From: a virus
Lineage: Duplodnaviria; Heunggongvirae; Uroviricota; Caudoviricetes
DNA: 64,000 nucleotides
IMG/VR virus record: IMGVR_UViG_3300028920_000902
Location: 12,298-76,297 of that record
Strand: one strand, 5' to 3'
The notes under the pieces were generated by a model. It was not told the origin of the DNA, made no database searches, and was given only the letters and a program-made list of their open reading frames with translations. Below are positions 30,198-61,618 of this stretch, in pieces. The position numbers were made by a program, and so were the translations under genes. Positions within the stretch are counted from its first letter, which is position 1; every line of letters begins with the position of its first letter.

Positions 30198-30205
30198 TTT
30201 TTCCC

Positions 30206-30787: not shown

Positions 30788-30790
30788 CCG

Positions 30791-31529: not shown

Positions 31530-31787
31530 GCAACACGAACGTACTCTATTAAGCGCTTAACGTGTCAGTACCGGCAGTGATTGTAGACTGTGCCCACTCC
31601 ATACGGGCACGCAAAGGGCAGTCAAGAGCTCCAGATGGCGCATAATTAACTATTATGTAAACTAACACGGTGTCAACCTGTAGGCAACACCCCCCCCAAT
31701 AGGCAAGGGGCGGCATACCCCCATACCTCTTGATGTATTATATATCTCTTGTCAGATTCTACGGCGCATTTTCCAGAAAGGGTTGCA

Positions 31788-37878: not shown

Positions 37879-37966
37879 CCCAGCCGCAACGCCAGCAGAA
37901 ATCCTTGACGCAGCTACAGGTAGATTTTCTAGCTACGCTTGGGAGGTTGGAAGAGCGGCTTGGTGA
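37784..37966 (+). CDS. small hypothetical protein (60 aa), alternative frame
   Basis: AAGGAG then 7 nt then GTG. Overlaps the 3' end of the 37600 ORF, so only one of the two is likely real. Confidence 0.3.
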   Translation: MDEELEMFLKQEEHRRAMILKVAKFCQEHGLDPAATPAEILDAATGRFSSYAWEVGRAAW

Positions 37967-42582: not shown

Positions 42583-42592
42583 CACTAGTTGT
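42568..42592 (+). promoter_or_regulatory. conserved 25-nt motif AGAAGTAGATCATAGCACTAGTTGT, copy 3
   Basis: Identical to the reverse complement of 23957-23981; ~55 nt upstream of the methyltransferase start. Confidence 0.45.
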
Positions 42593-42645
42593 ATGCAATA
42601 CCGGGGCAACCAATTTATAAGCGCGCGCGGGAAAAGACAAAGGCA

Positions 42646-48116: not shown

Positions 48117-49012
48117 TTCTCATCCATGTGAGTCGCCGGAGAACAACGGGGAAAGACAAGTTTCTGGGTCGCCTGTCTGACGAAATTGAGCGGCAGGGTC
48201 ACAAGGTTGTACGCTCTCCCAAGGAAAAGCACGACATCTATTTGGACAGAATATCGTTCAAGTGGGATACGGGGGCGCCACGGATTCTGCGGTTGAACGG
48301 GGTACACATAAACTCAGACCGTCCGATGAAGAAGCCCAATGACGAAATACGGCATCACGCCAAGCGGGCTGATGGGATAGTGTATCAGTCGCAGTTTTGC
48401 AAACAGATGAACGAGCGGTATGCCACGTATGGGCTGAAAATACCCAATCGTGTGATATTCAACGGCGCTCCGGTGGTGAGGCGGCGCTCAAAGCTGGCAA
48501 CACTCTATGACCGTACTTTTGTGGCATGTGCCAGATGGCGCCCACACAAGCGGCTGAATGACATTGTTGAGGCATTTGGACTAGCTAACATTCCCAATGC
48601 AGAGCTGGTTGTGTTAGGTAAGGTTACTCCTCGTTGTGTGCCGAATGTGCGTTTTATGGGGACGGTGAGCCAAGATGTGGTTGAGGCGCTGATGACCAAT
48701 GCGGTGGCGTCAATACACATTGCGTATCTTGATTGGTGTCCAAACAGCGTTGTCGAGGCACAGATGTGTGGGTGTCCGGTGATAACAAACAACGTGGGGG
48801 GCACGCGGGAAATTGCCCCAGAGCATGTGGTGGAAATCGACCCGGAATACTACGGCAAATCCGTGCGTTTGTATCACCCCCCATTGGTGGATCGACACAA
48901 GATTGCGAGTGCCATGTGGGCCTCGCTGAAGTGGGAACCCCCACAGACAGATCACATAGACATACGGAACGTGGCGAAACAGTATATTGAGTTCATGGAG
49001 ACGTTGCTATGA
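48110..49012 (+). CDS. GT4-type (GT-B) glycosyltransferase
   Basis: DWCPNSVVEAQMCGCPVI. Confidence 0.65.
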   Translation: MVVLIHVSRRRTTGKDKFLGRLSDEIERQGHKVVRSPKEKHDIYLDRISFKWDTGAPRILRLNGVHINSDRPMKKPNDEIRHHAKRADGIVYQSQFCKQMNERYATYGLKIPNRVIFNGAPVVRRRSKLATLYDRTFVACARWRPHKRLNDIVEAFGLANIPNAELVVLGKVTPRCVPNVRFMGTVSQDVVEALMTNAVASIHIAYLDWCPNSVVEAQMCGCPVITNNVGGTREIAPEHVVEIDPEYYGKSVRLYHPPLVDRHKIASAMWASLKWEPPQTDHIDIRNVAKQYIEFMETLL

Positions 49013-49674
49013 GGTGTGCCGTTCTGGGAAGGGGAAAGAGCCTTGCGCTGTGGAACGCCATTCCGGCGAGGCCGTTGTTTGACCTGATCTATCTTGTGAA
49101 TGACTGTTCCGAGGAGTCGCGGCGCATAGGGTTGACTGCGGAAGACGGAACGATAGAGCACGTATTCGGCCGTAAAAACGCAACGGTGCTAACCAGGGAG
49201 ACATACGAGAGGCTGAATGTCAAAACGGCATGGGTGAATGCGCTTGGGGTGGACAATATACGGAACATGAAGCGGATGCTGCAATCCATACCCCAGCAGA
49301 CAAAGGTTCACACTCGCCCCCCGTGTATGTACGACCGGGGGTATTTGCCGATAGGCTGGAAGAAGCTGCTTCGTGGGGTTACGTCGGCGGCGAGGCGGTC
49401 AGACAACGGCAATGCGTGGCCCACGACCGGTCTGTATGCCATAGGGCTTATGCTGGCGAAGAATAGCCCGAGTGAGGTGTGGTTGTTCGGGTTTGATTTT
49501 TACCGCGACAAGTACCTGATTAAGGCGAATCGCCCCCACCAGAACCAGGGGGCTGCCAAGGTGCAAATGATGTATCGGTATTTGCAGAAGCTTGTGGATG
49601 AATTTGCGGAAACGCAGTTCTATTCGGCAACGGATTTGGGTATGGAGGGTGAGAATTGGCACTTAATCCGGTGA
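49009..49674 (+). CDS. CstII/Maf-like (GT42/DUF115-type) nonulosonic-acid transferase, paralog 1
   Basis: AVLGRGKSL (cf. AGNGPSL) and TGLYAIGLMLAKNSPSEVWLFGFDFY (cf. SGVYMCAVAIALGYKEIYLSGIDFY of CstII). Confidence 0.55.
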   Translation: MRCAVLGRGKSLALWNAIPARPLFDLIYLVNDCSEESRRIGLTAEDGTIEHVFGRKNATVLTRETYERLNVKTAWVNALGVDNIRNMKRMLQSIPQQTKVHTRPPCMYDRGYLPIGWKKLLRGVTSAARRSDNGNAWPTTGLYAIGLMLAKNSPSEVWLFGFDFYRDKYLIKANRPHQNQGAAKVQMMYRYLQKLVDEFAETQFYSATDLGMEGENWHLIR

Positions 49675-50210
49675 AGCTCATTTCTGTTGCCAAAGTTGTG
49701 GACAGTCAGTATCGCAACGGCAAGTTTAATCGCATGGACATGATTATGCGGCTGCTGTGTGCCGAAGAGGGGGGCAAATGGTGGAAGCAGTATCGGAAGA
49801 TGCAGCATATTCGCATCAACAAGATACGCAAGATTCGCCCAAACAAGTGGCCGTCGGGATATGAAAAGAGGCGCGTCAAGGACTTTCTGGCGCTGCTGGA
49901 GTCGTTTGCCGAGAAGGGGTATGACATGTCGGTGAAGGGCATACGGCTTGACCGGGACTTGGAAATTGTGAACGGGTCGCACCGCCTTGCGTGCTGTATA
50001 CTGAATGGAATAAGTGAGATACCAGTACAATGGCCTCCGGAGAGTACAAAGGTGCGACGGCCATATGCGCTGAAATGGTTCAAGAAGCACGGGTTTTCAA
50101 AGCGAGTTCTTAGGGGGCTTGAGGCGCGGCGCCGAAAGCTGTTGAAGGATTTGGGACTCAAAGACAGGACAACAGATGAGTATTTTGAAAACAACATCGG
50201 GTGGGGCTAG
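49656..50210 (+). CDS. ParB/sulfiredoxin-fold domain protein, paralog 1
   Basis: GYDMSVKGIRLDRDLEIVNGSHRLACCILNGISEIPV matches the ParB N-terminal G-x-HR-x-A core. Confidence 0.55.
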   Translation: MALNPVKLISVAKVVDSQYRNGKFNRMDMIMRLLCAEEGGKWWKQYRKMQHIRINKIRKIRPNKWPSGYEKRRVKDFLALLESFAEKGYDMSVKGIRLDRDLEIVNGSHRLACCILNGISEIPVQWPPESTKVRRPYALKWFKKHGFSKRVLRGLEARRRKLLKDLGLKDRTTDEYFENNIGWG

Positions 50211-51048
50211 GGTTATTTGTGAGTGCTGCTGCAACCATCAGGGCGATTTGGACATTGCCAGAGAGATGGTGGTGGTTGCTGCAACGTATTGCAAGGTAGA
50301 CTACGTTAAATTCCAGAAACGATGCGTGTGGGACTTGCTGACCGATGAGCAGTATGTGCGTCCATACGATGGGCCGAATTCCTTTGGAGCAACATATGGG
50401 GAGCATCGTGAGGCGCTGGAATTTTCCATGCCGGAGCATTATACCCTACGCGACCTGTGCCACCAGCATGGTGTAGGGTATGGGTGTTCTGTGTGGGACA
50501 AGACCTCTGCGCGGCAGTTGGTGGAGATGAGGCCAGACCTGTTGAAGATACCGTCTGCGAAGAACCACGATATTGACATGATGGCATGGATACTTGAGCG
50601 ATACGAGGGGCCGCTGCATGTGTCCTGTGGCATGATGACCAAGGACGAACGGGACAATTTGCGCCGCCTTACGAGTGAGTGGAAGGGGCGCATTGTGGTG
50701 TACCATTGTACGTCGGCATATCCGGTGGAATTTGAGGACGTGTGCTTGGCTGAGATTGACCTGTTGCGGCGAGAGTGGTCACATGCGGCGGCCGTGGGGT
50801 TCTCCGGTCACCATCGTGGCATTGCGGTGGATATTGCGGCGGTGGAGCGTGGGGCACAATGGGTTGAGCGGCATTTCACGCTGGACAGGACGTGGAAGGG
50901 CACAGACCACGCGGCGTCGCTGGAGCCTGACGGCATGAAGCGGCTGGTGCGGGACTTGCGGAATGTGCGGGTGGCAAGCGGCGTGAAGGAGAAGGACATC
51001 CTCGATTGCGAAGTCCCCAACCGGAGGAAGCTCAAGGGTGAAGACTAG
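50176..51048 (+). CDS. neuB: N-acetylneuraminate (nonulosonic acid) synthase NeuB/PseI/LegI family
   Basis: NHQGDLDIAREMVVVAATYCKVDYVKFQ ... GFSGHHRGIAVDIAAVERGAQWVERHFTLD matches NeuB TIM-barrel motifs; no C-terminal SAF domain. Confidence 0.75.
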   Translation: MSILKTTSGGARVICECCCNHQGDLDIAREMVVVAATYCKVDYVKFQKRCVWDLLTDEQYVRPYDGPNSFGATYGEHREALEFSMPEHYTLRDLCHQHGVGYGCSVWDKTSARQLVEMRPDLLKIPSAKNHDIDMMAWILERYEGPLHVSCGMMTKDERDNLRRLTSEWKGRIVVYHCTSAYPVEFEDVCLAEIDLLRREWSHAAAVGFSGHHRGIAVDIAAVERGAQWVERHFTLDRTWKGTDHAASLEPDGMKRLVRDLRNVRVASGVKEKDILDCEVPNRRKLKGED

Positions 51049-51700
51049 AGCGCTGATACCAATTCGGGCGGGGAGTAAGGGCATTCCCAACAAGAACATG
51101 AAGGAGATGTGCGGCAAGCCCCTATGCTATTGGGTTATTGATGCGGCTTTGGGGGCCAAATCTGTGGACGAGGTGTGGGTGAGTACCGACTATGACGAAG
51201 ACATTGTTGGGCACATCGAGCCATGTCTTGGTGTGCGAGTTTTGTATCGTCCCGCATGGCTTGCTACCGATACCGCAACCTCGGACGATGTTCTGCGGCA
51301 CTTCTGTTGGTCTGAGTGTGAGCCGGATGACGTAGTGGTGATGCTTCAGGCGACAAGCCCGCTGACTACTGGCAAGGATATAGACGGGGCTGTTGATAAG
51401 AGTACAAAGCACGACAGTCTTCTGTCTGTTGTAAATCCGAGGTGCTGTTTCTATTGGGACGAGGATGGTTGTCCAATTAATTATAATCCAAGCACACGAC
51501 CGTTTCGTGGCGAGATTAAAAAGATATGCATGGAAAACGGGGCTATATACATAACTAGCGCGGGCGCTTGTATGAGGGGCGAACCCCGTATCTGGGGTGA
51601 TACAGGTATGTATATGATGCCCCCAGAGACAGCCACAGAGATAGACACCCCCGAAGATTGGGACATCGTGGAGAAGCTGCTTGAAGCTCGCCTTTCGTAG
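51038..51700 (+). CDS. neuA: acylneuraminate cytidylyltransferase (CMP-nonulosonic acid synthetase) family
   Basis: ALIPIRAGSKGIPNKN canonical N-terminus, MLQATSPL, and a conserved C-terminal region; GTG start with AGGAAG RBS. Confidence 0.8.
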   Translation: MKTRALIPIRAGSKGIPNKNMKEMCGKPLCYWVIDAALGAKSVDEVWVSTDYDEDIVGHIEPCLGVRVLYRPAWLATDTATSDDVLRHFCWSECEPDDVVVMLQATSPLTTGKDIDGAVDKSTKHDSLLSVVNPRCCFYWDEDGCPINYNPSTRPFRGEIKKICMENGAIYITSAGACMRGEPRIWGDTGMYMMPPETATEIDTPEDWDIVEKLLEARLS

Positions 51701-51704
51701 ATGT

Positions 51705-52604
51705 ATGATGCAGCGGTACAGGGCTATCCTGCACCTTGTAGACCCGCTCATAGAGATGGGTCACGAGTTGAAACTGGTGGTGTCTGACCACGATGTGAAT
51801 ATCGAGGCTTACCGCGCACGACCCTGCGACTTTGCGGCTTCCGCTCCGAACACCGTGGCGTATCTTGCTGGCACCATTGGTTTAACAATTAAGCATTTGG
51901 ACAGGGTGAAATATACTCTCAAGAAACACCCCATTTGTGACCAATACCTTGGGTATGACAATTCGCGGGATGACATATTTGGAATACCCTATGTGGGCGA
52001 TTCCTGTTACTGGCGAGGAAAAACAATTACCACCGGCAATCCGATGCGGGATTTGATTACGGATGATTACCGTCCCAACACGGTGTTGATTCTTCATCCC
52101 GGTGGCGGCAGGGGGTACGTTTCGCCGATTCGGCAGGATTGGGCCAAAGAAATAACCACGCGGAACAACATTGAATTTCTGCGGTGTATTATTGATTGTC
52201 TGCCCGCGTCTGTGATCCAAATCACAATCAAGACCCATCCCGCCCCGTATCGGCGCTGCACAAAATCGGCACTTGAGAAGTTTGTTGCGCCAAATCTACA
52301 GCAACCAGTCACGGTGGAGGACACTAACCTTATAGGGCTTATCAACTCCCATGAGTACATATTGAATTTTGGGGGGACATCTGCGCTGTGGGTAATGGGC
52401 AGCGGGAAGAAGTGGGCCAACGTCACGGGGCTGGTGAAGTATCCTGACTCAAACCAGCGAGAGAAGTTTTTGTCTGCGCGAGGGGGAGGCGTGCGGATAG
52501 AGAACTTGGCCGAGTGGTTTGAGAAGCCAGCCCCTGCGGCGCAGCCCAAGCCAAATGCGGTTCCCAAAATACTGAAGGCGATGCATGAATCTTTTGGCCT
52601 TTGA
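51705..52604 (+). CDS. putative glycosyltransferase / capsule-polysaccharide-biosynthesis-like protein
   Basis: No sharp motif; GT-B-like length and context. Confidence 0.35.
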   Translation: MMQRYRAILHLVDPLIEMGHELKLVVSDHDVNIEAYRARPCDFAASAPNTVAYLAGTIGLTIKHLDRVKYTLKKHPICDQYLGYDNSRDDIFGIPYVGDSCYWRGKTITTGNPMRDLITDDYRPNTVLILHPGGGRGYVSPIRQDWAKEITTRNNIEFLRCIIDCLPASVIQITIKTHPAPYRRCTKSALEKFVAPNLQQPVTVEDTNLIGLINSHEYILNFGGTSALWVMGSGKKWANVTGLVKYPDSNQREKFLSARGGGVRIENLAEWFEKPAPAAQPKPNAVPKILKAMHESFGL

Positions 52605-53463
52605 GAGCGTCGAGCAGTACAAGGAGGTGCTTCACGACGATACGTTTGTGAAGATACCCTTCAAGAAATGGCCGACTGTTGGCAACGAGACGATGAAGAA
52701 GTATGCCTATACGACATGGCAGCCAGACGCACCGTATGTCATACTCCTGAATACCTACAAGGGCAAGTATGAGAGCGAGACGGAATGGGTCAGGGGGTTT
52801 CGGGGCAAGCGCTTGTGTGTGGTAGACGGTGGAGACAAGGGCCGGTATTGGGAGCCATTTGTGAGTGTGGCGGATGTGTATATAAAGGAGAATTCGTATC
52901 GTAACACAGACCGTGATAATGTGCGGATTGGGTGTTACTGTCCCAGCATGAAGGTGCCGTTTTTGCTCAAGAAACACAAGATTGAATGGTGCGAGAGGCG
53001 TGTGCGCGATTGGTTGTTCTGTGGCGACATGCACAAGGCGCGGAAGCGGCATGTGAAGAAGTGGGTTCATTCAGGGCTGAAGGGCAAATGGGGCGATGAA
53101 CACACATATGGTCGCCCGCAATATCTCAAGGAGATGGGCCGGTCGCGGATGGCCCCCTCGTTTAGGGGGTATGGGGACAGGTGCCGCAGGGAGTGGGAGG
53201 CGTTGCTTACGGGGGCATTGCTGGTGCAGGACGAGAGGCTGGTGGACTATCCGTTTGTTGTCATGCAGCCGGGAAAGCACTTTTCATTTGAGGCCAAATG
53301 GAACGAGAAAATTGCCTGTGCCGGATACGATCTTGCTCGGAAGTGCTGGATGTGTAGCCCAAGTATAGACATCAGGATGGCGGCGCTGTACACCTTTTTT
53401 GATGTGCCCCAGATGTGGACATATGGGGATGTTGTCGAAGCGGAGAACAGATGGTTTTCTTAG
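52585..53463 (+). CDS. exostosin-like (GT47-like) glycosyltransferase, paralog A
   Basis: C-terminal CRREWEALLTGALLVQDERLVDYPF resembles the exostosin GT47 core (FCLxPxG...R...EAL..GCIPV..D...PF). Confidence 0.45.
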   Translation: MNLLAFESVEQYKEVLHDDTFVKIPFKKWPTVGNETMKKYAYTTWQPDAPYVILLNTYKGKYESETEWVRGFRGKRLCVVDGGDKGRYWEPFVSVADVYIKENSYRNTDRDNVRIGCYCPSMKVPFLLKKHKIEWCERRVRDWLFCGDMHKARKRHVKKWVHSGLKGKWGDEHTYGRPQYLKEMGRSRMAPSFRGYGDRCRREWEALLTGALLVQDERLVDYPFVVMQPGKHFSFEAKWNEKIACAGYDLARKCWMCSPSIDIRMAALYTFFDVPQMWTYGDVVEAENRWFS

Positions 53464-54311
53464 TGTTTGAAAGCCCAGAACACTATGCCGAGGTTCTTGG
53501 CGACACGTCGTTTGTCAAGTCTACTGTTCCGGGTTTTCCCGTTGTGGCGAACAGGTCTATGTTGCGGTGTATAAGAACAGAGTGGCGTTCAGATTATCCA
53601 TATGTGATGGTGTTGAGATATCGCGGGGGGGAGATTGGGGGCTTCAGGGGAAAGCGCATTCTTTTTTCGGACTATCGGCCGGAGCCATCGCTGTTGGATG
53701 AGTTTCGGTGGGTTGATATTTATGTGAAAGAAAACAGCGCCACTTGCTCGGACGGGAACTTGAGAGTTGGGGCGTATCGCCCAAGCGCGGCTGTGCCGTG
53801 GTCTATTTACCGACACCCGGAACTGATAAGGCAAAAGAAAAAGCTGGATGTGTTTTTTTGTGGGCAATTGCGTGGCGGGCGAAAAAGGAAGCTTCGTGGA
53901 TTTAGCGGCAAACGTGTTAAGATTTGTGGGACGAAATATGGACGCAAGAAGTACCTTGAGATGATGGCAAAATCGAGGGTGTGTCCATCGTATACGGGGC
54001 TTGGAAAGCGGTGTCGGAGAGAGTGGGAGGCGCTGTTGTGTAACTCCCTCCTCATGGTTGACAACGATTTGCGCCAGTACCCGTTTAATGTGATGCTGCC
54101 AGACAAGCATTTTGTATGGGATGGAAATTTGGAGCGAGCGCTTGCAGGAGAATTTGAACACATTAGGCTGGCTGGACACGAGCTGGCGCGGAAGTGTTTT
54201 CTTTCGTCGCCATCGGTGGATATTCGTGCTGCGGCCCTTTATTTGTTTTTTGATGTGCCACAAATGTGGACATATGACGAACTTGTAGCACAAGAGGAGA
54301 AGCTGCTGTGA
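53451..54311 (+). CDS. exostosin-like (GT47-like) glycosyltransferase, paralog B (tandem duplicate)
   Basis: Collinear with the preceding gene (FESPEHYAEVL vs FESVEQYKEVL; CRREWEAL; DIRxAALYxFFDVPQMWTYD). Confidence 0.45.
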   Translation: MVFLVFESPEHYAEVLGDTSFVKSTVPGFPVVANRSMLRCIRTEWRSDYPYVMVLRYRGGEIGGFRGKRILFSDYRPEPSLLDEFRWVDIYVKENSATCSDGNLRVGAYRPSAAVPWSIYRHPELIRQKKKLDVFFCGQLRGGRKRKLRGFSGKRVKICGTKYGRKKYLEMMAKSRVCPSYTGLGKRCRREWEALLCNSLLMVDNDLRQYPFNVMLPDKHFVWDGNLERALAGEFEHIRLAGHELARKCFLSSPSVDIRAAALYLFFDVPQMWTYDELVAQEEKLL

Positions 54312-55111
54312 GTGCTAGGGCATATGACATAGAGGGCTTCAGGATGGGGCTTGATGCGAACGCTCCGGGGATAGGCCGCGAGTTGATTCGTAAGGGTGGC
54401 CGGGAATTTGCGTTCATGTGGGTGCTTCGTGAGGAGGTCAAGGGGTGTACGTTGGGGTATGACATAGGTGCAAACATTGGGTATACCACCCTTCCCATAG
54501 CCACGGCGTGTGAGAAGGTGTTTGCCTTTGAGCCAGACAAGCGTTCTCGGAAGCTGCTGGAGAAGAATCTTGAGTTGAACAAGTTGGGGAATGTGTTGGT
54601 GTTCAAGGATGCGGTGACTGACCATTGCTTGGGGGTGAATATTTACCTGTCGAAGAAACCTAACCAGTCTTCCATAGCCCGGAAGGTGGGTAAGAAGAAG
54701 CACGTTTCGAGTACGACGCTGGATACCCATGCCCGATTCAACGACGATGGGGTGTTCATCAAGATGGACATTGAGGGGGCAGAGGTCGAGGCAATCCGTG
54801 GGGCCAAGAAAATACTGTCCCACAACGAGCATGTGAAGATACTCATGGAGATTCACCCCAAAGCCTATGGTGAGAATCGGGACTTCCGCGAGACGATGGA
54901 CATACTTACGTTTCACGGTTTCAGGATGAAGTATATCGTGAACGCCAAGGGAATGATGGATCTGTTTCGGGCCAAGGGGGCGCGGCTGATTAAGCAGTTT
55001 GGTGACTATCCGAGGGCTGTGTGGGCACCGTTTAATGGGGCAAAGGAGTGGTGCCTGAACTTCTATGGCGGGAAGAAGATAGTCAGGAGCGTGTTGTGGG
55101 TAAAAGGATAG
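54308..55111 (+). CDS. FkbM-family methyltransferase
   Basis: GYDIGANIGYTT...VFAFEPD...FIKMDIEGAEVEAIRG. Confidence 0.7.
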   Translation: MSARAYDIEGFRMGLDANAPGIGRELIRKGGREFAFMWVLREEVKGCTLGYDIGANIGYTTLPIATACEKVFAFEPDKRSRKLLEKNLELNKLGNVLVFKDAVTDHCLGVNIYLSKKPNQSSIARKVGKKKHVSSTTLDTHARFNDDGVFIKMDIEGAEVEAIRGAKKILSHNEHVKILMEIHPKAYGENRDFRETMDILTFHGFRMKYIVNAKGMMDLFRAKGARLIKQFGDYPRAVWAPFNGAKEWCLNFYGGKKIVRSVLWVKG

Positions 55112-55911
55112 CGTGCATTTGTGGCAAGCCGGGGCGGGTGCAGCATACGCGGATGAAGTTCCTGCGGGACAACTACATGCCGTATCTGGATGTGTACGCT
55201 GACGATGTACCAACCCTCAATAAATATGAGGTTGTGTACTTCAGCCACTATTCGCTTGCAAAAAAGGTCAAGTTTGACGGAAAGCGCAAGTATCTGGCAT
55301 CGGTGACCAGTCACAAATATGACAAGAAGGAGTTGGGGAAGTTTGACAGGATAAGCGTGAACAATCGACTGCTGCTGGAGGAACTAAAGGAATTCAGTCC
55401 TGTGCTGACAGAGAACGGGGTGGACACGAAGTTCTGGACACCTAGTGATAGGGCAAACTCTCGCGGTGGTATTGGGTGGGTGGGGAATGTTGACAGATAT
55501 GCCAAGCGTTATGACATAGTTATGTGCCTTGAAGACAGGTTGCCGCTAAATTGGGTTCCCCTGCAAACATCAAAACACGACACTAGGCAGCGGCTAGAAC
55601 CTCAAAACATGCGGGAGTATTATCGGTCTATCTGGGTGTATGTGGTAACCAGCGATTCTGAGGGTACGCCAAATCCGGCATTAGAGGCAATGTCGTGTGG
55701 GGTTCCCGTACTTACCACTCCGGTTGGTAACATGCCAGATGTTCATAGTGCCGTTAAGTATCGTAACACAGAGCAATTGTGTATGATGCTTGGGAAATAT
55801 CATTGTGGGCACCACCCCAATAGAGAAGATATACGGCGGGAGATGGTTGAGAACTGGGACTGGTCAATCAAATACAGGGCGTGGGATGATTTCTTCAAGG
55901 AGTGGTTGTGA
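55093..55911 (+). CDS. GT4-type (GT-B) glycosyltransferase
   Basis: SDSEGTPNPALEAMSCGVPVLTT; GTG start with AGGAG RBS. Confidence 0.6.
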   Translation, partial: VVGKRIACICGKPGRVQHTRMKFLRDNYMPYLDVYADDVPTLNKYEVVYFSHYSLAKKVKFDGKRKYLASVTSHKYDKKELGKFDRISVNNRLLLEELKEFSPVLTENGVDTKFWTPSDRANSRGGIGWVGNVDRYAKRYDIVMCLEDRLPLNWVPLQTSKHDTRQRLEPQNMREYYRSIWVYVVTSDSEGTPNPALEAMSCGVPVLTTPVGNMPDVHSAVKYRNTEQLCMMLGKYHCGHHPNREDIRREMVENWDWSIKYRAWDDFFKEWL

Positions 55912-56537
55912 TTACGGCCTTCTTGATTACCAATGGGCGGTCGAGTTACCCGTATGCCATGCGGGCGCTGGAGGAACAGACCTACAAGGTGCCCATTGTC
56001 ACCATTCACAACAAGGGGTGGGTTGAGGCAAACAACCTTGCGTTGGAGACGTGTCCCACCGAGTTGATGCTGCGCGTGGACGATGACATGTTTCTGCATC
56101 CGGCTGCGGTGGAGTTCATGTTGGACACGCTGCCAGCCAAAACCACCATGCACAGGGGGAAGCTCTATGAGCCGCACACCCGCCGAGTTGCTGGAAGAAT
56201 TAAGGTCTACAAAGTTCCCCGCTGTCGGGAGATTGGAGGTTTCAGGGCAAACAGACTCGGTAAAATTGACCGAATTTTTGAACGCACGGTTGGACATGAT
56301 AATATCTCTATTGCAGACAAACAATGTCCTGTTGGAATCCATAGCTGTCCGCCTTGGAGCGAACAGCGAGAGTATGAGCGGCTTTGGGGACACAGAAAGT
56401 CAACCCGAGAGCAGATGAAGCGGTTTGACATGCCGTTGCAGGAACAATTCGGAATGCGGGTTTGGAAAATTGAACGTATAGCCAGACAGCGGAATGGGAG
56501 GTTTTGGAAATGGCTACAAGGAAAATCCGAGAGCTGA
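55908..56537 (+). CDS. glycosyltransferase family 2
   Basis: ITAFLITNGRSS...RVDDDMF DxD. Confidence 0.6.
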   Translation: MITAFLITNGRSSYPYAMRALEEQTYKVPIVTIHNKGWVEANNLALETCPTELMLRVDDDMFLHPAAVEFMLDTLPAKTTMHRGKLYEPHTRRVAGRIKVYKVPRCREIGGFRANRLGKIDRIFERTVGHDNISIADKQCPVGIHSCPPWSEQREYERLWGHRKSTREQMKRFDMPLQEQFGMRVWKIERIARQRNGRFWKWLQGKSES

Positions 56538-56839
56538 GATTCCGGCTCGACGAAGAGGGGAATTTGCAACACACCATTGTTTGTTTGACTCCCCACTATG
56601 CCCATGCGGTTGCATATTATGCCGGAATGGACTGCTGGGTGTACCGAGATTGGCAGCAATCACGGGGGAAAGACCCCGACAAGAAGGCCGAAAAGTACAA
56701 TCTGTTGCTCAAGAGCTTGGCGAAAAAGGGGATGCGGCAGCCCATAGAGGTGCGGGATGATGAGATACAGCATGGACACCACCGGGCGGCGGCATGGTTG
56801 GCACTCGGCCACAGGGAGATAGAATGTCAGGAAGTATAA
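56510..56839 (+). CDS. ParB/sulfiredoxin-fold domain protein, paralog 2
   Basis: GMRQPIEVRDDEIQHGHHRAAAWLALGHREIE. Confidence 0.5.
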   Translation: MATRKIRELRFRLDEEGNLQHTIVCLTPHYAHAVAYYAGMDCWVYRDWQQSRGKDPDKKAEKYNLLLKSLAKKGMRQPIEVRDDEIQHGHHRAAAWLALGHREIECQEV

Positions 56840-57705
56840 TCATTGGGGGCACGTATTTCACGGACGAGCGTATCAATATGATACAGGGTTGGTTTGGTGC
56901 GGATGTCACTACCGTTTCGTGGAATGATGTGGACTGTGGGCAGTACCCCCAGCTTGGGGATTGGGTGTTTGTGTTGGGGATAAAACAGTGGGTTCGGCGG
57001 CTCAAGAAGGCCAGATACACCTATCCCCAGATTGCCAAGAAGGTGGTTTCGTATATCGAGGGTTTGGGGCGCCCATACGGCCTCCTAGACGATTGTAACC
57101 TTGATGACGAGCGTGGCATAGGGGATAGACTCAGGATGGATTTGAGACCGGTTATTTGCCTCCTGAGAGAGTATCTGGAGCATGTGGAGTATCCGTCGTG
57201 GGTGCATCCATTTTCCATCCCCTCTCCCGATCTGTCCCAGTACAAGTCTGCCGGGGTGCCGATATCCTTTTGCGGTGCTAAGAGTCACCCGTCACGGCAG
57301 CATTGGATCGGTCAAATACGGGAAGTCGCTCCCGAGGGGTCGATATTCAAGCTCTACAAGGAGGGGGGCAAGGGGAAACTGCCCCGCGAAGAATATCTGT
57401 CACTAATCGGCGAAAGCAAGGTATCTTTAAGCTTTCAGGGGAATGGGTACTGCTGCTTCCGATACCAGGAGATTCCTGCTGTGGGTAGCTGTTTGGCGTC
57501 ACCAACGACACCCCATGTCGTGCGCAATGATTACGTGAACGGAAAGCACTGTATCAAATTTGATACACCAAACGACATTTTGAAGAAGATGGATGCGGCA
57601 GAGGACATTGCTGCTGCGGGGCATGAGCATTTTCTGAAATACCACACCAGCGAAGTGCGCTACAATGAACTAGCGGGGTATATTGATGAAGTACGTAGGC
57701 ATTAA
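56824..57705 (+). CDS. CgeB-like (Glyco_trans_1_2) GT-B glycosyltransferase
   Basis: C-terminal KVSLSFQGNGYCCFRYQEIPAVGSCLAS resembles the CgeB family. Confidence 0.45.
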   Translation: MSGSIIIGGTYFTDERINMIQGWFGADVTTVSWNDVDCGQYPQLGDWVFVLGIKQWVRRLKKARYTYPQIAKKVVSYIEGLGRPYGLLDDCNLDDERGIGDRLRMDLRPVICLLREYLEHVEYPSWVHPFSIPSPDLSQYKSAGVPISFCGAKSHPSRQHWIGQIREVAPEGSIFKLYKEGGKGKLPREEYLSLIGESKVSLSFQGNGYCCFRYQEIPAVGSCLASPTTPHVVRNDYVNGKHCIKFDTPNDILKKMDAAEDIAAAGHEHFLKYHTSEVRYNELAGYIDEVRRH

Positions 57706-58108
57706 GTCGTGCAAGGAGAAGCGCAAGGCATCGAATCGTGGTGGCAAAATCGTTGTGGTGAAAACGGAAGACTTGATTGCGGGGGATTGTCAGCGGCATC
57801 TCGATTACCTTGAGGGGAACTATCGGACATACATTATATTTCACCAGAACAACGGGAAGTCAAATGACTGGATTGAGGCGCGGATGCAGAAGTTTGACGA
57901 GCTTATTGAGAGCATTCGGGAGAACGGGTTTGACTATTCTCGGGGATTTGTTCGTGTGGCCGAACCCGGTGTACGTGTGGATGGATCTCATCGCGCTTGC
58001 ATATGTCATCATCTTGGGATTGATACACTTCAATGTCTAGAGGTGAAGATGAAACTGACCCCGGCACTCAAGAAGCACTTGGAGGAGCAGCGCCGTGCGT
58101 ATTGTTGA
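57683..58108 (+). CDS. ParB/sulfiredoxin-fold domain protein, paralog 3
   Basis: GFDYSRGFVRVAEPGVRVDGSHRACICHHLGIDTLQCLEV. Confidence 0.5.
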   Translation: MMKYVGIKSCKEKRKASNRGGKIVVVKTEDLIAGDCQRHLDYLEGNYRTYIIFHQNNGKSNDWIEARMQKFDELIESIRENGFDYSRGFVRVAEPGVRVDGSHRACICHHLGIDTLQCLEVKMKLTPALKKHLEEQRRAYC

Positions 58109-58895
58109 TTTCACCAAACCCCGCCGGGAAAGTCGAATGCGGCATGTTGCCGAGCGGGAACATTTTGAGTATATACCCATATCAGACCCCCACAATGTTC
58201 CCGATGGGGATTACTATCTTGTGCCGTCAAGCTGGTGGTACAAGGGAAAAGACAAGGGGGCTATAGAATGTGCAAACTCATTCCGTGGCCGGGTGGTAAT
58301 GGTGGATTACGCCAAGGAAATGGAGCAGAAGAGGAAGAACAAGGGCGGGCTGAGGGCGGATTATATTGCGATGATGGACAATGCTTCGCCGAATTCCGTA
58401 CCCGTGATTCCGTTTGCCGTGCCCTGTTTCGACCCCTCGCCTCGGTTCCGCCGCGACCCGCAGAAGGGGCGGGTGCTGGTGACGATGGAGGGCCCAACGG
58501 GGAAGGTGGTCGCCTCGTTGGTTGAGCGGCTGCGCGACAGGCACATCATATGGAAGATGCGGAGCAAGTTTCTCGACAGGCTGGAATACTATGCGGAAGT
58601 TCTGAGTGGTACGCGGCACAAAATTGTGTACTCGGAGGACAAGGACTACAATTGGGCACAGCCGCTGGTTGAGCAATGTGCCCAGTTTGTTGAGGAACAT
58701 GTAAACATAAAACAGTTGTCTTATCCAAACCAAGAGATGATACGGTATGGTGTGCCCACCTCTATATGGGATGGGAAGCGTTTTGTTGGACACGAGAGAA
58801 TAGAGAGAACCAAAAGGTTTTATGAGGGCAAACCGAGGGACTACTGTACTCGAAATTTGGTGAGGTTTTTGCGTGAGAATCTGCCTGATAATTGA
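58095..58895 (+). CDS. hypothetical protein in glycan island (266 aa)
   Basis: GTG start; no family recognised. Confidence 0.4.
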   Translation: MRIVDFTKPRRESRMRHVAEREHFEYIPISDPHNVPDGDYYLVPSSWWYKGKDKGAIECANSFRGRVVMVDYAKEMEQKRKNKGGLRADYIAMMDNASPNSVPVIPFAVPCFDPSPRFRRDPQKGRVLVTMEGPTGKVVASLVERLRDRHIIWKMRSKFLDRLEYYAEVLSGTRHKIVYSEDKDYNWAQPLVEQCAQFVEEHVNIKQLSYPNQEMIRYGVPTSIWDGKRFVGHERIERTKRFYEGKPRDYCTRNLVRFLRENLPDN

Positions 58896-59775
58896 CAAGT
58901 GGGGCTGGGCCTATGACCGCATAGCTCAGGGGCTTATCAAATTCAATAAGTCAGAACACGAGTTTGAGGTCTTTGCAGCGAAGACGGACGCGAAGAAAAT
59001 CAAGCGGTCGAAGGCTGACAGATTCCTCGTGATGGGTTATCAATATTGGGACAAGGTGGACTTTCTGCCCAAGGACAGAACCTTCGTTGGGGTACACGGG
59101 CACCATCAGTGGGACGGACACAAGACCACCCCGACCGAGGACGTGCTTCCGCCGAATGATCTTCACGAGTTTCTTTCCACTTTCCGGGGGGTGAATGTTG
59201 TCTCAGAACGATTGCACAGACTGTTTCCATACGCATCCTATACCCCAAACGGAGTCGATGTGGGGCTGTTTCGGCGCGAGCGTGTGCCGTGCCATTATTC
59301 TGGTGGTGGCAAGATGAAGATCGGTTGTGCGTATAACCCCAAACATGATTGGCGTAAGGGTGTCAAAGAGTTTGTTGAACCAGCGTTAAATATGGAGTAT
59401 GGTAGTGATGGGTATGATGATGACTGGATGGACAATGACGAGTATGAGCTTTGTTTGGCTCCAAGAAATCTAGCACTGTATGAAATGCCGGCATGGTATA
59501 ACACGATTGATATATATGTGTGTGCGTCATCCAGCGAAGGGCTTAGCCTTTCAGTCTTAGAGGCGCTGGCCTGTGGGAGAGGCATTGTTTCTACGATACC
59601 AAACGAAATAGAGGCACAAGACGTTGTGGCCAGAACCGTGCCGGACATTCGAGAGGGAATTGAGTGTTGCCTTGAGTATCCCAAACCAGAATCTGACAGA
59701 GCAATTCAAGAAGCCAAGGAGAGGTGGTCATGGGAGAAGAGATGCGGAGAATGGACAAGGTTCTTGGAGGGATGA
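58873..59775 (+). CDS. GT4-type (GT-B) glycosyltransferase
   Basis: SSSEGLSLSVLEALACGRGIVST. Confidence 0.65.
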   Translation: MRICLIIDKWGWAYDRIAQGLIKFNKSEHEFEVFAAKTDAKKIKRSKADRFLVMGYQYWDKVDFLPKDRTFVGVHGHHQWDGHKTTPTEDVLPPNDLHEFLSTFRGVNVVSERLHRLFPYASYTPNGVDVGLFRRERVPCHYSGGGKMKIGCAYNPKHDWRKGVKEFVEPALNMEYGSDGYDDDWMDNDEYELCLAPRNLALYEMPAWYNTIDIYVCASSSEGLSLSVLEALACGRGIVSTIPNEIEAQDVVARTVPDIREGIECCLEYPKPESDRAIQEAKERWSWEKRCGEWTRFLEG

Positions 59776-60339
59776 ATGGCACTATTTAAGCATTTCTTTA
59801 AGAACCGTGATGGTCTGTCGTTTGTACAAATTGGCGCAAATGATGGGGTGGACTTTGTTCGTGAGCGCGTGTTGACCTTCGGGTGGCGTGGGGTTTTCGT
59901 TGAGCCGATTCCACACATATTTAAACGGCTGAAAGAAACCTATCGGGGAGTTGGGGGGCTGGCGTTTGAGAATGTTGCTATTGCCGAGTCCGCCGGAACC
60001 AAGGACTTTCATGTGTGTGATGGACACGAGGTGTGTAGTGGCCTTGAGATTGTTCATCCCAAGGTAAGTCGTCATCCGTTTCACACTATTCGGGTTAAGT
60101 GCATTACAATTTCCCAGTTGTTTGAGCGTTACGGCATAGAGCGCCTTGATGTGTTGGTAATTGACACCGAGGGGTATGATGGCAAGATAATCAAGAGCAT
60201 GGATTTCAACGTAAGACCCAAGGTGCTGATATATGAAAGCAAGGATCTGCCTGATAATGATGAGGTGAGGGCGCTGCTTAAGGGGCAGGGGTACAAATTT
60301 CGTCCATTCAGTAACAACACGGTGGCATATCTAAAATGA
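59776..60339 (+). CDS. FkbM-family methyltransferase (second copy)
   Basis: FVQIGANDG...VFVEP...LDVLVIDTEGYD. Confidence 0.65.
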   Translation: MALFKHFFKNRDGLSFVQIGANDGVDFVRERVLTFGWRGVFVEPIPHIFKRLKETYRGVGGLAFENVAIAESAGTKDFHVCDGHEVCSGLEIVHPKVSRHPFHTIRVKCITISQLFERYGIERLDVLVIDTEGYDGKIIKSMDFNVRPKVLIYESKDLPDNDEVRALLKGQGYKFRPFSNNTVAYLK

Positions 60340-60965
60340 AAACATTGGCAATATATGGGTGTGGGTATAGTCTGAACGAATTGTCTGATGAGCAGTGGGA
60401 TGAGCTTCGTCAGTTTGATTCTATTGGTGTGAACTGGTTTGTGTTTCAGCGGTGGATCGAGCCTACTTACATGCTGGTTGGAGACATTCGGCACGACAGG
60501 AAGATAGCCAAGTTGGGACATACGCTTGAAGAAGCATTTGAGATATACGTCAAAGAGGCTTCTGCGCCGTGCTACAAGAACACAATTTTTGTGGCACGAG
60601 ATTATCAAATGCCGATGCTTGGAAACCTGAGAATGTGTGAATATGTCCCAGATCGGGAGTGGAGGGCATCTAGCATAACCCAATGTCTTCATTGGGCGGT
60701 CAAAAATGGATATGAGCGAGCATTGGTTGCTGGAGTGGACTTGTATGACTATCGTTTTTTCTTCTTGGAACACGAACAAGTCAGGAACTATGGGTTGGTT
60801 GGGGGCGGTTGGGCAAAGAGAAAAATTCACGGTCGCCATCAGGCATATAACAAAATGAAGAAGTGGTTTAAGAGTGGGGTGTGCAAGATTCCGATTTACT
60901 GCTACAATCCCAAGTCACTCATGTTTGATTTTCCGGGGACAAAATCATGGTTGCAGCAATCCTGA
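60336..60965 (+). CDS. CstII/Maf-like nonulosonic-acid transferase, paralog 2
   Basis: AIYGCGYSL and SSITQCLHWAVKNGYERALVAGVDLYDY. Confidence 0.5.
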   Translation: MKTLAIYGCGYSLNELSDEQWDELRQFDSIGVNWFVFQRWIEPTYMLVGDIRHDRKIAKLGHTLEEAFEIYVKEASAPCYKNTIFVARDYQMPMLGNLRMCEYVPDREWRASSITQCLHWAVKNGYERALVAGVDLYDYRFFFLEHEQVRNYGLVGGGWAKRKIHGRHQAYNKMKKWFKSGVCKIPIYCYNPKSLMFDFPGTKSWLQQS

Positions 60966-61618
60966 TTGGTCGCAAGGGGTCGAAGGGGTTTCCCGGCAAG
61001 AACACCCATGTGGTCTGCGGTAGGCCAATGTGTGAGTGGCCTCTGCTTGCGGCTCAGAAGATGGTGGACAAGATATACTACTCCACCGACGATGAAGATG
61101 TACACGAGATTGCAAAAGCCTATGGGGAGAGGTTGCATCGCCCCCCGGAACTGGCAACTGATGAGGCTCTGGGCGAGGATGTATACCAGCATTGTGCGGC
61201 GCGAGTGGTTGAGCCAATACTGGTGTTGTTGATGGCCAACGCCCCGACAGTTGCAGATTTCCACATTGCTGACGGGTTGCGGGCACTTCAGGATGGATAT
61301 GCCTCAGCTTGTACGGTGTCGAAGTACAACATGTTTCACCCAACAAGAGCAAGGGTGCGCGGGGAAAGCCTGTGGCATTACCATCATGGCGGCGCGAGTT
61401 GTGATCGTAATTCTGCCGGTGATGCTTGGTTCTATGATTGTGGGTGTGCTGTGGTGAGAAGGGAGAACATGAGTATGCTTCACAGTGGGCTTCCCCCACA
61501 GCGGTGGCTCCATGTGCCGTGCTATGGCATTGAGAACGAGGCGGGGATAGACGTGGATTACGAATGGCAACTTGGGCAGGTTGAGTGGTGGCTGAGGAGG
61601 TATGCAAAATGCGCGTAG
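60947..61618 (+). CDS. cytidylyltransferase, CMP-nonulosonic acid/CMP-KDO synthetase family (second copy)
   Basis: AAILIGRKGSKGFPGKN N-terminal motif. Confidence 0.75.
   Translation: MVAAILIGRKGSKGFPGKNTHVVCGRPMCEWPLLAAQKMVDKIYYSTDDEDVHEIAKAYGERLHRPPELATDEALGEDVYQHCAARVVEPILVLLMANAPTVADFHIADGLRALQDGYASACTVSKYNMFHPTRARVRGESLWHYHHGGASCDRNSAGDAWFYDCGCAVVRRENMSMLHSGLPPQRWLHVPCYGIENEAGIDVDYEWQLGQVEWWLRRYAKCA

What the first reader, a model, noticed from the sequence alone, without database searches (positions are those of the whole stretch)
49656..58108. Three stand-alone ParB/sulfiredoxin-fold paralogs interleaved with glycosyltransferases
ORFs 49656-50210, 56510-56839 and 57683-58108 (110-184 aa) all share the ParB N-terminal core G-[SH]-HR-[AL]. 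None has the HTH or dimerisation domains of partition ParB. Each sits immediately next to a transferase gene. ParB/Srx domains bind CTP or ATP, and this pathway is CTP-dependent (CMP-sugar activation). A ParB-fold accessory family in glycan biosynthesis is not something I recognise as described.
Basis: partly seen in the sequence, partly recalled or inferred. Interest (0 to 1): 0.7.

Follow-up and report, generated by a model that had tools for sequence, protein, structure and literature searches.

The report
ParB/sulfiredoxin-fold proteins tied to sialic-acid-like sugars
Three small genes inside a phage sugar-coat gene cluster encode proteins with the nucleotide-binding fold of the DNA-partition protein ParB, and one of them belongs to a large unannotated family that in bacteria and archaea usually sits beside the two core genes for making sialic-acid-like sugars, which points to an undescribed step or helper in that pathway.

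Summary
All three ORFs are real genes: A 49656/49671-50210, B 56510-56839, C 57686-58108. They are called independently in other assemblies, are syntenic in a diverged contig, and show pN/pS of about 0.3.

Protein A aligns end to end with the N-terminal domain of a large bacterial/archaeal family that has no usable Pfam, NCBIfam or PDB match. In 27 genome loci that gene is directly next to NeuB and/or a cytidylyltransferase-phosphatase (NeuA-HAD) in 16, and within two genes in 19. Fusion partners are a Maf-like putative nonulosonic-acid transferase, GT-B domains, SAM methyltransferases and an uncharacterised roughly 330-aa extension with a possible nucleotidyltransferase-like motif.

Best reading: an NTP-binding ParB/Srx module dedicated to nonulosonic-acid glycan pathways. 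It most likely acts as a phosphotransferase like SerK, SbnI or Srx. A non-catalytic CMP/CTP(-sugar)-binding accessory role is the main rival. No biochemistry exists for either, and I found no prior description.

The parts
49656..50210 (+). Paralog A (184 aa from TTG 49656, or 179 aa from GTG 49671). ParB/Srx-fold protein with an NGSHR motif and a C-terminal Y..WF..GF helical extension. It is a full-length member of the NeuB/NeuA-linked bacterial family.
56510..56839 (+). Paralog B (109 aa). A minimal ParB/Srx-fold protein with an HGHHR motif. It keeps the Y..WQ..R motif of the family.
57686..58108 (+). Paralog C (140 aa). ParB/Srx-fold protein with a DGSHR motif.
50176..51048 (+). NeuB-family nonulosonic acid synthase. 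It is short (290 aa) and matches only model positions 3-273 of the 329-position NeuB model. Its start overlaps the end of A.
51038..51700 (+). CMP-nonulosonate synthetase-like cytidylyltransferase (CTP_transf_3). There is no HAD phosphatase domain here, unlike most bacterial counterparts.
60947..61618 (+). Second cytidylyltransferase paralog (CTP_transf_3 family).
49009..49674 (+). Conserved unannotated gene (221 aa) immediately upstream of A in the window and L001, and one small ORF away in L003. No Pfam or NCBIfam match.
55902..56537 (+). Conserved gene (211 aa) upstream of B. No family hit here; its L001 ortholog, which there lies one gene away from B, has a weak GT2 hit.
56794..57705 (+). 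Glyco_trans_1_2-like protein (303 aa) between B and C. A homolog also sits next to C-type genes in L001 and in the 488-kb viral contig L031.
58095..58895 (+). Conserved unannotated gene (266 aa) immediately downstream of C in the window and in L001.
54308..55111 (+). FkbM-family methyltransferase. Methyltransferases are recurrent neighbours or fusion partners of the ParB-like domain.
59776..60339 (+). Second FkbM-family methyltransferase.

Best explanation
The three genes encode single-domain proteins of the ParB/sulfiredoxin fold that have nothing to do with DNA partition. They belong to a previously unannotated branch of that superfamily that is dedicated to pathways building glycans with nonulosonic (sialic-acid-like, probably Kdn/Neu5Ac-type) sugars. 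Shown: the fold, the family membership, and the genomic linkage to NeuB and the CMP-sugar synthetase. Inferred: the conserved (D/N/H)-G-[SH]-H-R loop, which is the Box II 'GxxR' phosphate motif of the fold, binds the phosphates of an NTP. As in the only small-molecule enzymes known with this fold (the serine kinases SerK and SbnI, and sulfiredoxin), the protein would then transfer a phosphoryl group to a hydroxyl of a sugar. That sugar could be the hexose or hexosamine precursor that a 9-phosphate-type NeuB needs, or the nonulosonic acid or glycan itself. A methyltransferase could then cap the phosphate, which would explain the kinase+methyltransferase fusions. Paralog A would be the pathway-core version, sitting next to NeuB and NeuA as in bacteria. 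B and C keep the phosphate loop but have different N-terminal conserved residues, so they would be phage-specific derivatives with other acceptors or partners among the adjacent GT-like proteins. Layered confidence: about 0.85 that this is a ParB/Srx-fold, nucleotide-binding, non-DNA family of nonulosonic-acid glycan pathways; about 0.4 that the activity is phosphotransfer.
For: Family: the joint profile finds 1608 cluster representatives at E<=1e-3. A aligns end to end with the bacterial domain, with R26, D28, G107, H109 and R110 invariant. By plain phmmer, A hits the target gene in 26 of 27 loci. C and B match the bacterial profile at 98.4% and 92.1%.
Linkage: among the +-3 neighbours of 26 loci, NeuB occurs 18 times, CTP_transf_3 16 times and HAD 13 times. 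The gene is immediately adjacent to NeuB or NeuA in 16 of 27 loci and within two genes in 19 of 27. NeuA there is fused to, or followed by, a KdsC-like HAD phosphatase, which indicates a 9-phosphate route.
Kinase-like logic: SerK is a proven kinase that had been mis-annotated as ParB (PMC5120207). One family member hits the NCBIfam SerK model at 2e-4. Fusions to class I SAM methyltransferases exist, which is the kinase+methyltransferase pairing of WbdD (from memory). The common roughly 330-aa extension has a possible nucleotidyltransferase-like KDLDI motif. Two fusions place an Epimerase_2/PseG-like GT-B domain N-terminal to the ParB-like domain, the same order as in the epimerase-kinase GNE (from memory).
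Confidence: 0.42

Rival explanations
1. The proteins are non-catalytic, or switch-like, nucleotide(-sugar)-binding accessories. The ParB/Srx domain would bind CTP, CMP or the CMP-activated nonulosonic acid, and would present it to, or gate, the adjacent transferase or methyltransferase. This would parallel the way ParB-like proteins activate phage T-dioxygenases or act as CTP switches.
For: Canonical ParB binds CTP, and this pathway runs on CTP and CMP-sugar, with two cytidylyltransferases in the window. The domain is fused to several different late-stage catalytic domains, as expected of a shared ligand-binding module: Maf/MptE-like putative nonulosonic-acid transferases, KpsS/TagF-like GT-B domains and SAM methyltransferases. 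In the phage, B and C flank GT-like genes. There is precedent for a ParB-like protein acting as an obligatory activator of another enzyme (PMC13229309).
Against: Several charged or polar residues away from the phosphate loop are invariant or nearly so (R26, D28, R32, Q50, R53), which looks more like an active site. The stand-alone form is kept directly between NeuB and NeuA in several loci that have no obvious transferase partner beside it (L022, L023). All known small stand-alone enzymes of the fold are phosphotransferases. No interaction data exist.
Confidence: 0.3
2. The bacterial roughly 500-aa proteins are themselves a new kind of nonulosonic-acid transferase or phospho-transferase. The stand-alone phage proteins would then work together with separate partner proteins. 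The ParB-like part would bind the cytidine nucleotide leaving group, and the possibly LicD/NTase-like part would bind the acceptor.
For: In most loci no known sialyltransferase family is a consistent neighbour (MptE-like in only 4 of 142 neighbours), while the ParB-like gene is. The C-terminal extension contains a KDLDI.C..(E)DF motif that resembles NTase/LicD-type D-x-D motifs, read from the alignment. LicD-type enzymes use CDP-activated donors with CMP as leaving group (from memory).
Against: The extension has no significant Pfam or PDB match, so the LicD/NTase resemblance is untested. No window ORF matches it. No glycosyltransferase with a ParB/Srx or NTase catalytic domain is known. The stand-alone forms show that the ParB-like domain functions without the extension.
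Confidence: 0.12
3. They are ordinary phage ParB-like nuclease or DNA-associated proteins (partition, DNA modification or anti-defence) that merely lie among glycan genes. Alternatively, the whole cluster glycosylates phage DNA and the ParB-like proteins target it to DNA.
For: ParB-like nuclease domains are common in phages and are often fused to DNA methyltransferases. A DNA N6/N4 methylase lies at 42589-43503. ParB-like partners of DNA-modifying dioxygenases are known.
Against: There is no HTH or other DNA-binding domain, and the GERR box is replaced by G[SH]HR. Bacterial and archaeal relatives sit in surface-polysaccharide loci with NeuB, NeuA-HAD, Wzx-type flippases and GT2s. Fusions are to glycan enzymes, not DNA enzymes. 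Pfam ParB_N does not recognise the family: no ParB_N hit among the 100 members scanned.
Confidence: 0.06

Closest known systems
Free serine kinases SerK (Thermococcus kodakarensis TK0378) and SbnI (Staphylococcus)
   Different: SerK and SbnI are about 240-250 aa with their own C-terminal helical domain, and they act on L-serine. Sequence similarity is marginal (SbnI E=0.31). Our family has a different N-terminal insertion (R.D...R and Y..MQ..R helices) and sits in a nonulosonic-acid context.
Sulfiredoxin (Srx)
   Different: The catalytic Cys of the Srx GCHR motif is Ser (A, C) or His (B) here. Srx acts on peroxiredoxin sulfinic acid and has no glycan context.
ParB-CTPase proteins (Spo0J/ParB, KorB, PadC, pNOB8 ParB-N)
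   Different: Our proteins have no HTH, no dimerisation domain, no ParA or parS and no GERR box. Pfam PF02195 does not recognise the family, which is why PF02195-based surveys (PMC12704722) would have missed it.
Functional analogues only: GNE (UDP-GlcNAc 2-epimerase/ManNAc kinase) and WbdD (kinase+methyltransferase O-antigen terminator)
   Same: The pathway logic is similar. A kinase would feed a 9-phosphate-type sialic acid synthase, followed by a phosphatase and a CMP-synthetase (GNE-NANS-NANP-CMAS). Kinase+methyltransferase fusions act on glycans (WbdD). Both comparisons are recalled from the literature, not tested here.
   Different: The folds are unrelated (ROK kinase and protein-kinase-like). 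There is no homology, and the analogy rests on domain order and operon context only.

Membership tests
ParB/Srx superfamily (fold level) | Alpha/beta ParB N-terminal/sulfiredoxin fold | tested here: met
ParB/Srx superfamily (fold level) | Box II phosphate motif GxxR on the loop before the central helix | tested here: met
   G107-S-H-R110 (A), G-H-H-R (B) and G-S-H-R (C) are invariant across all three families and the bacterial family. The motif definition is from PMC12704722.
Pfam ParB_N (PF02195) | Score at or above the gathering threshold (26.3 bits) | tested here: not met
   Only B hits, at 13.1 bits and E=0.1; A and C have no hit. None of 100 wider-family members hits at E<=1e-3. One homolog of A (P0007) carries a precomputed hit, and the triple-domain P0142 scores 33 bits.
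Partition ParB (ParABS) | Central HTH parS-binding domain and C-terminal dimerisation domain | tested here: not met
   The proteins are 109-184 aa, modelled as a single domain plus short helices, with no HTH family hit.
Partition ParB (ParABS) | Adjacent parA and GERR arginine patch | tested here: not met
   The neighbours are glycan genes on both sides. The motif is G[SH]HR, not GERR.
Sulfiredoxin | Catalytic cysteine in F-[GS]-G-C-H-R | tested here: not met
   In the HMMER alignment to 6ky4, the Srx GCHR aligns with GSHR. B has GHHR.
SerK/SbnI free serine kinases | NCBIfam SerK model above cut-off, and about 240-aa two-domain architecture | tested here: not met
   The window proteins have no NCBIfam SerK hit. 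One wider-family member hits at only 2e-4. The architecture differs.
SerK/SbnI free serine kinases | NTP/NDP-dependent phosphorylation of a small-molecule hydroxyl | not testable with these tools
   This needs enzyme assays.
NeuB/NeuA-linked ParB-like family (defined here) | Sequence signature F-N-R-x-D...R, Y-x-x-M-Q-x-x-R, F..LI.S....GYD, (D/N)GSHR and Y...WF..GF across about 150 aa | tested here: met
   A has all elements and aligns end to end, and phmmer hits 26 of 27 loci. B keeps Y..WQ..R and GHHR. C keeps only the central helix and DGSHR, so B and C are peripheral members.
NeuB/NeuA-linked ParB-like family (defined here) | Gene adjacent to NeuB-family synthase and CMP-nonulosonate synthetase | tested here: met
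   In the window the order is A-NeuB-NeuA. 16 of 27 genome loci are immediately adjacent and 19 of 27 are within two genes. In L003 the order is A-NeuB. B and C are not adjacent to NeuB, but they lie in the same cluster.

The most novel reading that the evidence does not exclude
A ParB/sulfiredoxin-fold enzyme family is the unrecognised fourth core component of a widespread 'phospho-route' to Kdn or sialic-acid-like sugars in bacteria, archaea and large phages. The module would be ParB-like protein + short NeuB + KdsC-type phosphatase + CMP-synthetase. The ParB-like protein could be the missing sugar kinase, a non-homologous counterpart of the kinase half of animal GNE. Alternatively, it could be a new nonulosonic-acid or glycan kinase whose phosphate is then methylated or otherwise elaborated. 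Phages would have triplicated and specialised it.
Probability: 0.3. Interest if true: 0.8.

Novelty: new variant of a known kind. Interest (0 to 1): 0.66.

Why it matters
Nonulosonic acids (sialic, legionaminic and pseudaminic acids, and Kdn) decorate capsules, LPS, flagella and S-layers, and they matter for immune evasion and for phage-host recognition. A conserved, unannotated gene wedged between the synthase and the CMP-synthetase in many phyla means the textbook pathway is incomplete for a large set of organisms.

It would also add a third physiological setting to the ParB/Srx fold, glycan biosynthesis, beside DNA clamps and the serine and sulfinic-acid phosphotransferases. This branch is invisible to PF02195-based surveys.

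Practically, the family could be given a profile model for annotation. The cultured Lachnospiraceae bacterium AD3010 locus (L016) or a synthetic three-gene module offers a direct experimental test. The phage context suggests that large phages build elaborate sialic-acid-like glycans of their own: about 30 glycan genes, three or four ParB-like paralogs, and relatives up to 488 kb.

Tried and rejected
- Single-sequence Pfam and NCBIfam scans of the three proteins gave only sub-threshold hits.
- PDB sequence-profile searches with each single family (A2, A3, A4), with the 500-aa class (A7) and with the bacterial domain (A10) gave nothing significant. Only the merged profiles reached sulfiredoxin.
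- Megablast of 24 kb of the window, and tblastn of A, C and the bacterial P0044, found nothing in cultured phage genomes (INPHARED) or plasmids (PLSDB), so no annotated reference exists.
- The AFDB50 fold library was unavailable.
- Viral-contig scans with the merged alignment failed because there was no conserved stretch. Scans with A2 and A4 found no relatives, and A3 found two.
- The single metagenome scan, with A3, returned mostly near-identical short contigs.
- I tested whether the bacterial C-terminal extension corresponds to a neighbouring window gene (a 'Rosetta stone'). No window ORF matches it.
- I looked for a KdsC-type HAD phosphatase in the window and in related phage loci and found none.
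- The SbnI paper could not be retrieved, so statements on its catalytic residues are omitted.
- I rejected a chance motif, because profile homology and purifying selection argue against it. I also rejected a canonical partition ParB, a sulfiredoxin and a DNA-directed role. See the membership tests and rivals.
Full report
**1. Are the three genes real?**

The window carries an uninterrupted + strand gene array from about 41 kb to its end.

- ORF A is 49656-50210 from a TTG start. The 99%-identical database protein P0001 starts at the GTG at 49671.
- ORF B is 56510-56839 from an ATG; the mechanical ORF starts at 56504.
- ORF C is 57686-58108 from an ATG; the mechanical ORF starts at 57683.

Each overlaps the preceding and following genes by a few codons. 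Identical 109-aa and 140-aa products are called in independent assemblies.

Orthologs of all three lie in the same order in a diverged 38-kb sediment-metagenome contig, L001, at 46-58% amino-acid identity. Against them, synonymous sites are saturated and pN/pS is 0.27-0.35. They are therefore expressed, selected genes.

**2. Are they paralogs?**

It occurs six times in the six-frame ORFs of the window, including once in NeuB.
- The underlying homology is real. BLASTP gives A/C 1e-06 and B/C 9e-05, with no A/B alignment.
- After collecting homologs, profile-profile comparison gives 97.5% (A/C), 95.7% (C/B) and 81.8% (A/B) over the region 'F..L..S....G(Y/F)D...I.V....(D/N/H)G[SH]HR.A....G...I.V'.
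- The joint HMM finds exactly these three ORFs in the window.

**3. Is it the ParB/Srx fold?**

- Single-sequence Pfam and NCBIfam scans do not reach threshold: ParB_N 13.1 bits against a cut-off of 26.3, for B only.
- PHROGs 'ParB-like' families hit B at 3e-06 and C weakly.
- Profiles of the three proteins, or of the three families together, hit Arabidopsis sulfiredoxin at E=3-4e-4. Spo0J and SbnI follow at non-significant E-values.
- A homolog of A (P0007, 62% identity) carries a precomputed PF02195 hit.
- AlphaFold2 on the merged 23-24-sequence alignments gives pLDDT 94.8 and pTM 0.87 for C, and pLDDT 87.5 and pTM 0.84 for A.
- Foldseek against predicted viral structures returns almost only 'ParB/Sulfiredoxin' proteins, all weakly, with the best at E 2e-3.
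- G-[SH]-H-R is the Box II 'GxxR' phosphate motif of the fold (definition in PMC12704722).
- None of the proteins has room for an HTH or a dimerisation domain.

**4. Context in the window**

The left part of the window is phage-like. It carries a primase/helicase (24093-25865, minus strand), a weakly terminase-like 774-aa ORF (37875-40199) and a 1757-aa ORF.

From about 43.5 kb to at least 64 kb there are about 28 glycan-type genes:

- a rhamnosyltransferase-like gene, GT9-like, GT4 and GT2 genes, and a Glyco_trans_1_2-like gene;
- two FkbM methyltransferases;
- a short NeuB-family synthase (50176-51048, E 5e-62);
- two CTP_transf_3 cytidylyltransferases (51038-51700 and 60947-61618);
- an RlaP-like Pol-beta nucleotidyltransferase;
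- a radical-SAM-like gene.

A is immediately upstream of NeuB and NeuA. B and C flank the Glyco_trans_1_2-like gene 56794-57705.

Related elements carry the same arrangement:

- L001 has A, B and C plus a fourth B-like domain fused to a SAM methyltransferase.
- L003 has the order A-NeuB, with a DnaB helicase among the glycan genes.
- The 488-kb IMG/VR contig L031 has two C-type genes next to homologs of 56794-57705 and 58873-59775.
- The 74-kb viral contig L032 has a ParB-like gene near a NeuB homolog and a radical-SAM-like gene.

Nothing similar is present in cultured phage genomes or in plasmids.

**5. The wider family**

- The joint profile, run against 1.84 billion cluster representatives, finds 1608 proteins at E<=1e-3 and 115 at E<=1e-10. 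The weak tail probably includes generic ParB-like proteins.
- Of the best 100, none hits Pfam ParB_N at E<=1e-3 and most hit nothing. The few extra domains are all glycan-related: Capsule_synth, Epimerase_2, LpxB, Glyphos_transf, Maf N-terminal domain and SAM methyltransferases. NCBIfam adds TIGR04396 'surface carbohydrate biosynthesis', BFO_1060 glycosyltransferase, LIC12162 transferase, NeuD/PglD and PseG, plus one weak SerK hit.
- Source names are 'hypothetical protein', a mis-transferred 'UDP-GlcNAc 2-epimerase' or 'KpsS', or 'ParB/RepB/Spo0J'.
- Roughly half of the top hits are longer than 230 aa.
- The dominant architecture accounts for 62 segments from about 58 proteins. It is an N-terminal ParB-like domain followed by a roughly 330-aa extension: WPP..YFDEI, DDI..WK, H.GDN..QS, then a KDLDI.C motif that may be nucleotidyltransferase- or LicD-like.
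- The extension has no Pfam or PDB sequence match and no counterpart in the window.
- Protein A aligns end to end with the N-terminal domain of these proteins. R26, D28, G107, H109 and R110 are invariant. R32, Y46, M49, Q50, R53, S83, S108, W141 and F142 are nearly so.
- C and B match that bacterial profile at 98.4% (E 6e-15) and 92.1% (E 6e-7) but lack the N-terminal R..D...R residues. They have their own conserved residues there: D35, C36, R38 and H39 in C; T29, P30, H31 and Y32 in B.

**6. Genomic linkage in cellular genomes**

- A scan of one genome per species with the 500-aa-class alignment returned 27 loci. They come from Bacteroidota, Firmicutes, Lentisphaerae, Alphaproteobacteria, Campylobacterota, Cyanobacteria and a Woesearchaeote.
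- Among the three genes on either side in 26 loci (142 proteins), the commonest Pfam families are NeuB (18), CTP_transf_3 (16) and HAD hydrolases (13 and 11). GT2, Wzx-type flippases and MptE/Maf-like follow.
- By homology to the window's own NeuB (E down to 1e-100) and NeuA, the ParB-like gene is immediately adjacent to NeuB or NeuA in 16 of 27 loci and within two genes in 19 of 27. The recurrent orders are NeuB-PARB-NeuA, PARB-NeuB-NeuA and NeuB-NeuA-PARB.
- Several of the remaining loci are short contigs or contig ends.
- NeuA in these loci is about 385-400 aa, with a KdsC-type HAD motif (DxDGxxT) near residue 236, or it is followed by a separate 154-155-aa HAD. This is the signature of a route through a nonulosonate 9-phosphate (Kdn-9-P/Neu5Ac-9-P type). 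That inference comes from established knowledge of the animal and Bacteroides pathways.
- The phage loci lack this phosphatase.
- Notable variants are three tandem paralogs in an Oscillospiraceae MAG (L026), a protein with three ParB-like domains (P0142), and a 1436-aa protein next to NeuB-NeuA that combines Maf/MptE-like, ParB-like and SAM-methyltransferase parts (L030).

**7. What it most likely does**

Shown:
- the proteins have a ParB/Srx-fold domain with an intact phosphate loop;
- they have no DNA-binding parts;
- they belong to a family whose genes and fusions are tied to nonulosonic-acid glycan pathways.

Inferred:
- The domain binds an NTP. Every stand-alone small-molecule enzyme of this fold (SerK, SbnI, sulfiredoxin) is a phosphotransferase (PMC5120207; PMC12704722). 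The family keeps a set of invariant Arg, Asp, Gln and His residues. I therefore favour a kinase-type reaction on a sugar hydroxyl.
- Two versions are compatible with the data. In the first, the protein phosphorylates the hexose or hexosamine that a 9-phosphate-type NeuB condenses with PEP. The four-gene logic would then mirror kinase-synthase-phosphatase-CMP-synthetase in animals, and two fusions have an Epimerase_2/PseG-like GT-B domain in front of the ParB-like domain, as in GNE.
- In the second, the protein phosphorylates the nonulosonic acid or the glycan, possibly followed by methylation. ParB-like+methyltransferase fusions and FkbM neighbours fit this, as does the WbdD-like logic.
- Against the first version, Kdn needs only mannose-6-phosphate, and the phage lacks the phosphatase.

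The main rival is a non-catalytic CMP/CTP(-sugar)-binding or switch module serving the adjacent transferases and methyltransferases. The diversity of late-stage fusion partners favours it, and a ParB-like activator of another enzyme has precedent (PMC13229309). A DNA-directed role is unlikely given the bacterial contexts.

**8. Comparison with what is known, and novelty**

- The proteins are members of the ParB/Srx superfamily at fold level.
- They are not members of partition ParB: no HTH, no dimerisation domain, no GERR box, no ParA.
- They are not sulfiredoxins: no catalytic Cys.
- They are not SerK/SbnI: different architecture and no significant sequence match.
- The 2025 survey of the ParB-CTPase fold started from PF02195. 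It lists DNA- and RNA-related fusion partners and does not mention glycan, capsule, sialic acid or NeuB. Since PF02195 misses this family, the survey would not have seen it.
- Full-text searches combining ParB terms with nonulosonic, NeuB or glycosyltransferase terms found nothing relevant.
- I therefore rate it a new variant of a known kind: a new functional family of a known fold in a new pathway context. It has a large phyletic spread and a clear experimental handle.

**9. Caveats**

- No biochemistry exists.
- Nucleotide specificity is unpredictable from sequence.
- The linkage statistic was measured on loci retrieved with a peptide pattern from A's subfamily.
- The glycan association of B and C rests on four phage-like contigs.
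- The NTase/LicD reading of the bacterial extension is an untested visual impression.
- The target of the phage glycan is unknown.

Noticed in passing
window 43546-64000 (+ strand): A phage-like genome carries a contiguous glycan-biosynthesis cluster of at least 20 kb and about 28 genes. The phage-like genes include a primase/helicase at 24093-25865 and a weakly terminase-like ORF at 37875-40199. The cluster has NeuB, two cytidylyltransferases, several GT2/GT4/GT9-like genes, two FkbM methyltransferases and a radical-SAM-like gene. Related clusters occur in L001, L003 and a 488-kb IMG/VR contig (L031). The glycan's target (virion, host surface or DNA) is unknown.
   Followed up: partly
window 52585-53463 and 53415-54311: These are tandem paralogs (292 and 298 aa, phmmer E about 1e-67) with no Pfam match. 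Both end in ...FDVPQMWTY. They lie in the middle of the glycan cluster.
   Followed up: no
window 45734-46492: An RlaP-like Pol-beta-superfamily nucleotidyltransferase (Pfam E 1.6e-12) is embedded among the glycosyltransferases. That is an odd companion for a glycan cluster. It does not match the extension of the bacterial ParB-like fusion proteins.
   Followed up: partly
window 61585-62946: A 453-aa ORF with a CPEHCVFC (CX3CX2C) radical-SAM-type motif. A homolog lies next to a ParB-like gene in viral contig L032 and near one in bacterial locus L024. It was not profile-tested here.
   Followed up: no
window 50176-51048: The NeuB homolog is short (290 aa) and matches only positions 3-273 of the 329-position NeuB model. 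Any C-terminal domain of classical NeuB is therefore missing, as in the roughly 290-aa NeuBs next to the bacterial ParB-like genes. This may mark a distinct (9-phosphate-type?) synthase subfamily.
   Followed up: partly
window 42589-43503 and 14220-16274: An N6/N4 DNA methylase lies just before the glycan cluster. Separately, a 684-aa ORF has a C-terminal part that hits a PHROGs DNA-methyltransferase family.
   Followed up: no
window 7096-12369: A 1757-aa ORF has only a roughly 150-aa region (residues about 480-630) matching PHROGs families of unknown function. Together with the 691-, 732-, 684- and 830-aa neighbours, it looks like a structural or tail module.
   Followed up: no
window 20000-32000: GC skew drops to about 0 or negative, and several ORFs run on the minus strand (the replication module with primase/helicase). 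This contrasts with the strongly positive skew of the rest of the window.
   Followed up: no
loci L004-L030 (e.g. L004 9899-11446, L008 9989-11503): The roughly 500-aa bacterial proteins carry a conserved roughly 330-aa extension after the ParB-like domain (WPP..YFDEI, DDI..WK, H.GDN..QS, KDLDI.C). It has no Pfam or PDB sequence match, so it is an uncharacterised pair of domains in its own right.
   Followed up: partly
L030 8069-12379; L026 8845-11765; protein P0142: Three extreme architectures were seen. The first is a 1436-aa Maf/MptE-like + ParB-like + SAM-methyltransferase fusion directly upstream of NeuB and NeuA-HAD. The second is three tandem roughly 315-aa ParB-like paralogs in an Oscillospiraceae MAG. 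The third is a 951-aa protein with three ParB-like domains.
   Followed up: partly
L001 13687-14571: In the related phage contig, a fourth ParB-like (B-type) domain is fused to a class I SAM methyltransferase. In the window, the equivalent position after the C-downstream gene holds a GT4 gene instead (58873-59775).
   Followed up: partly
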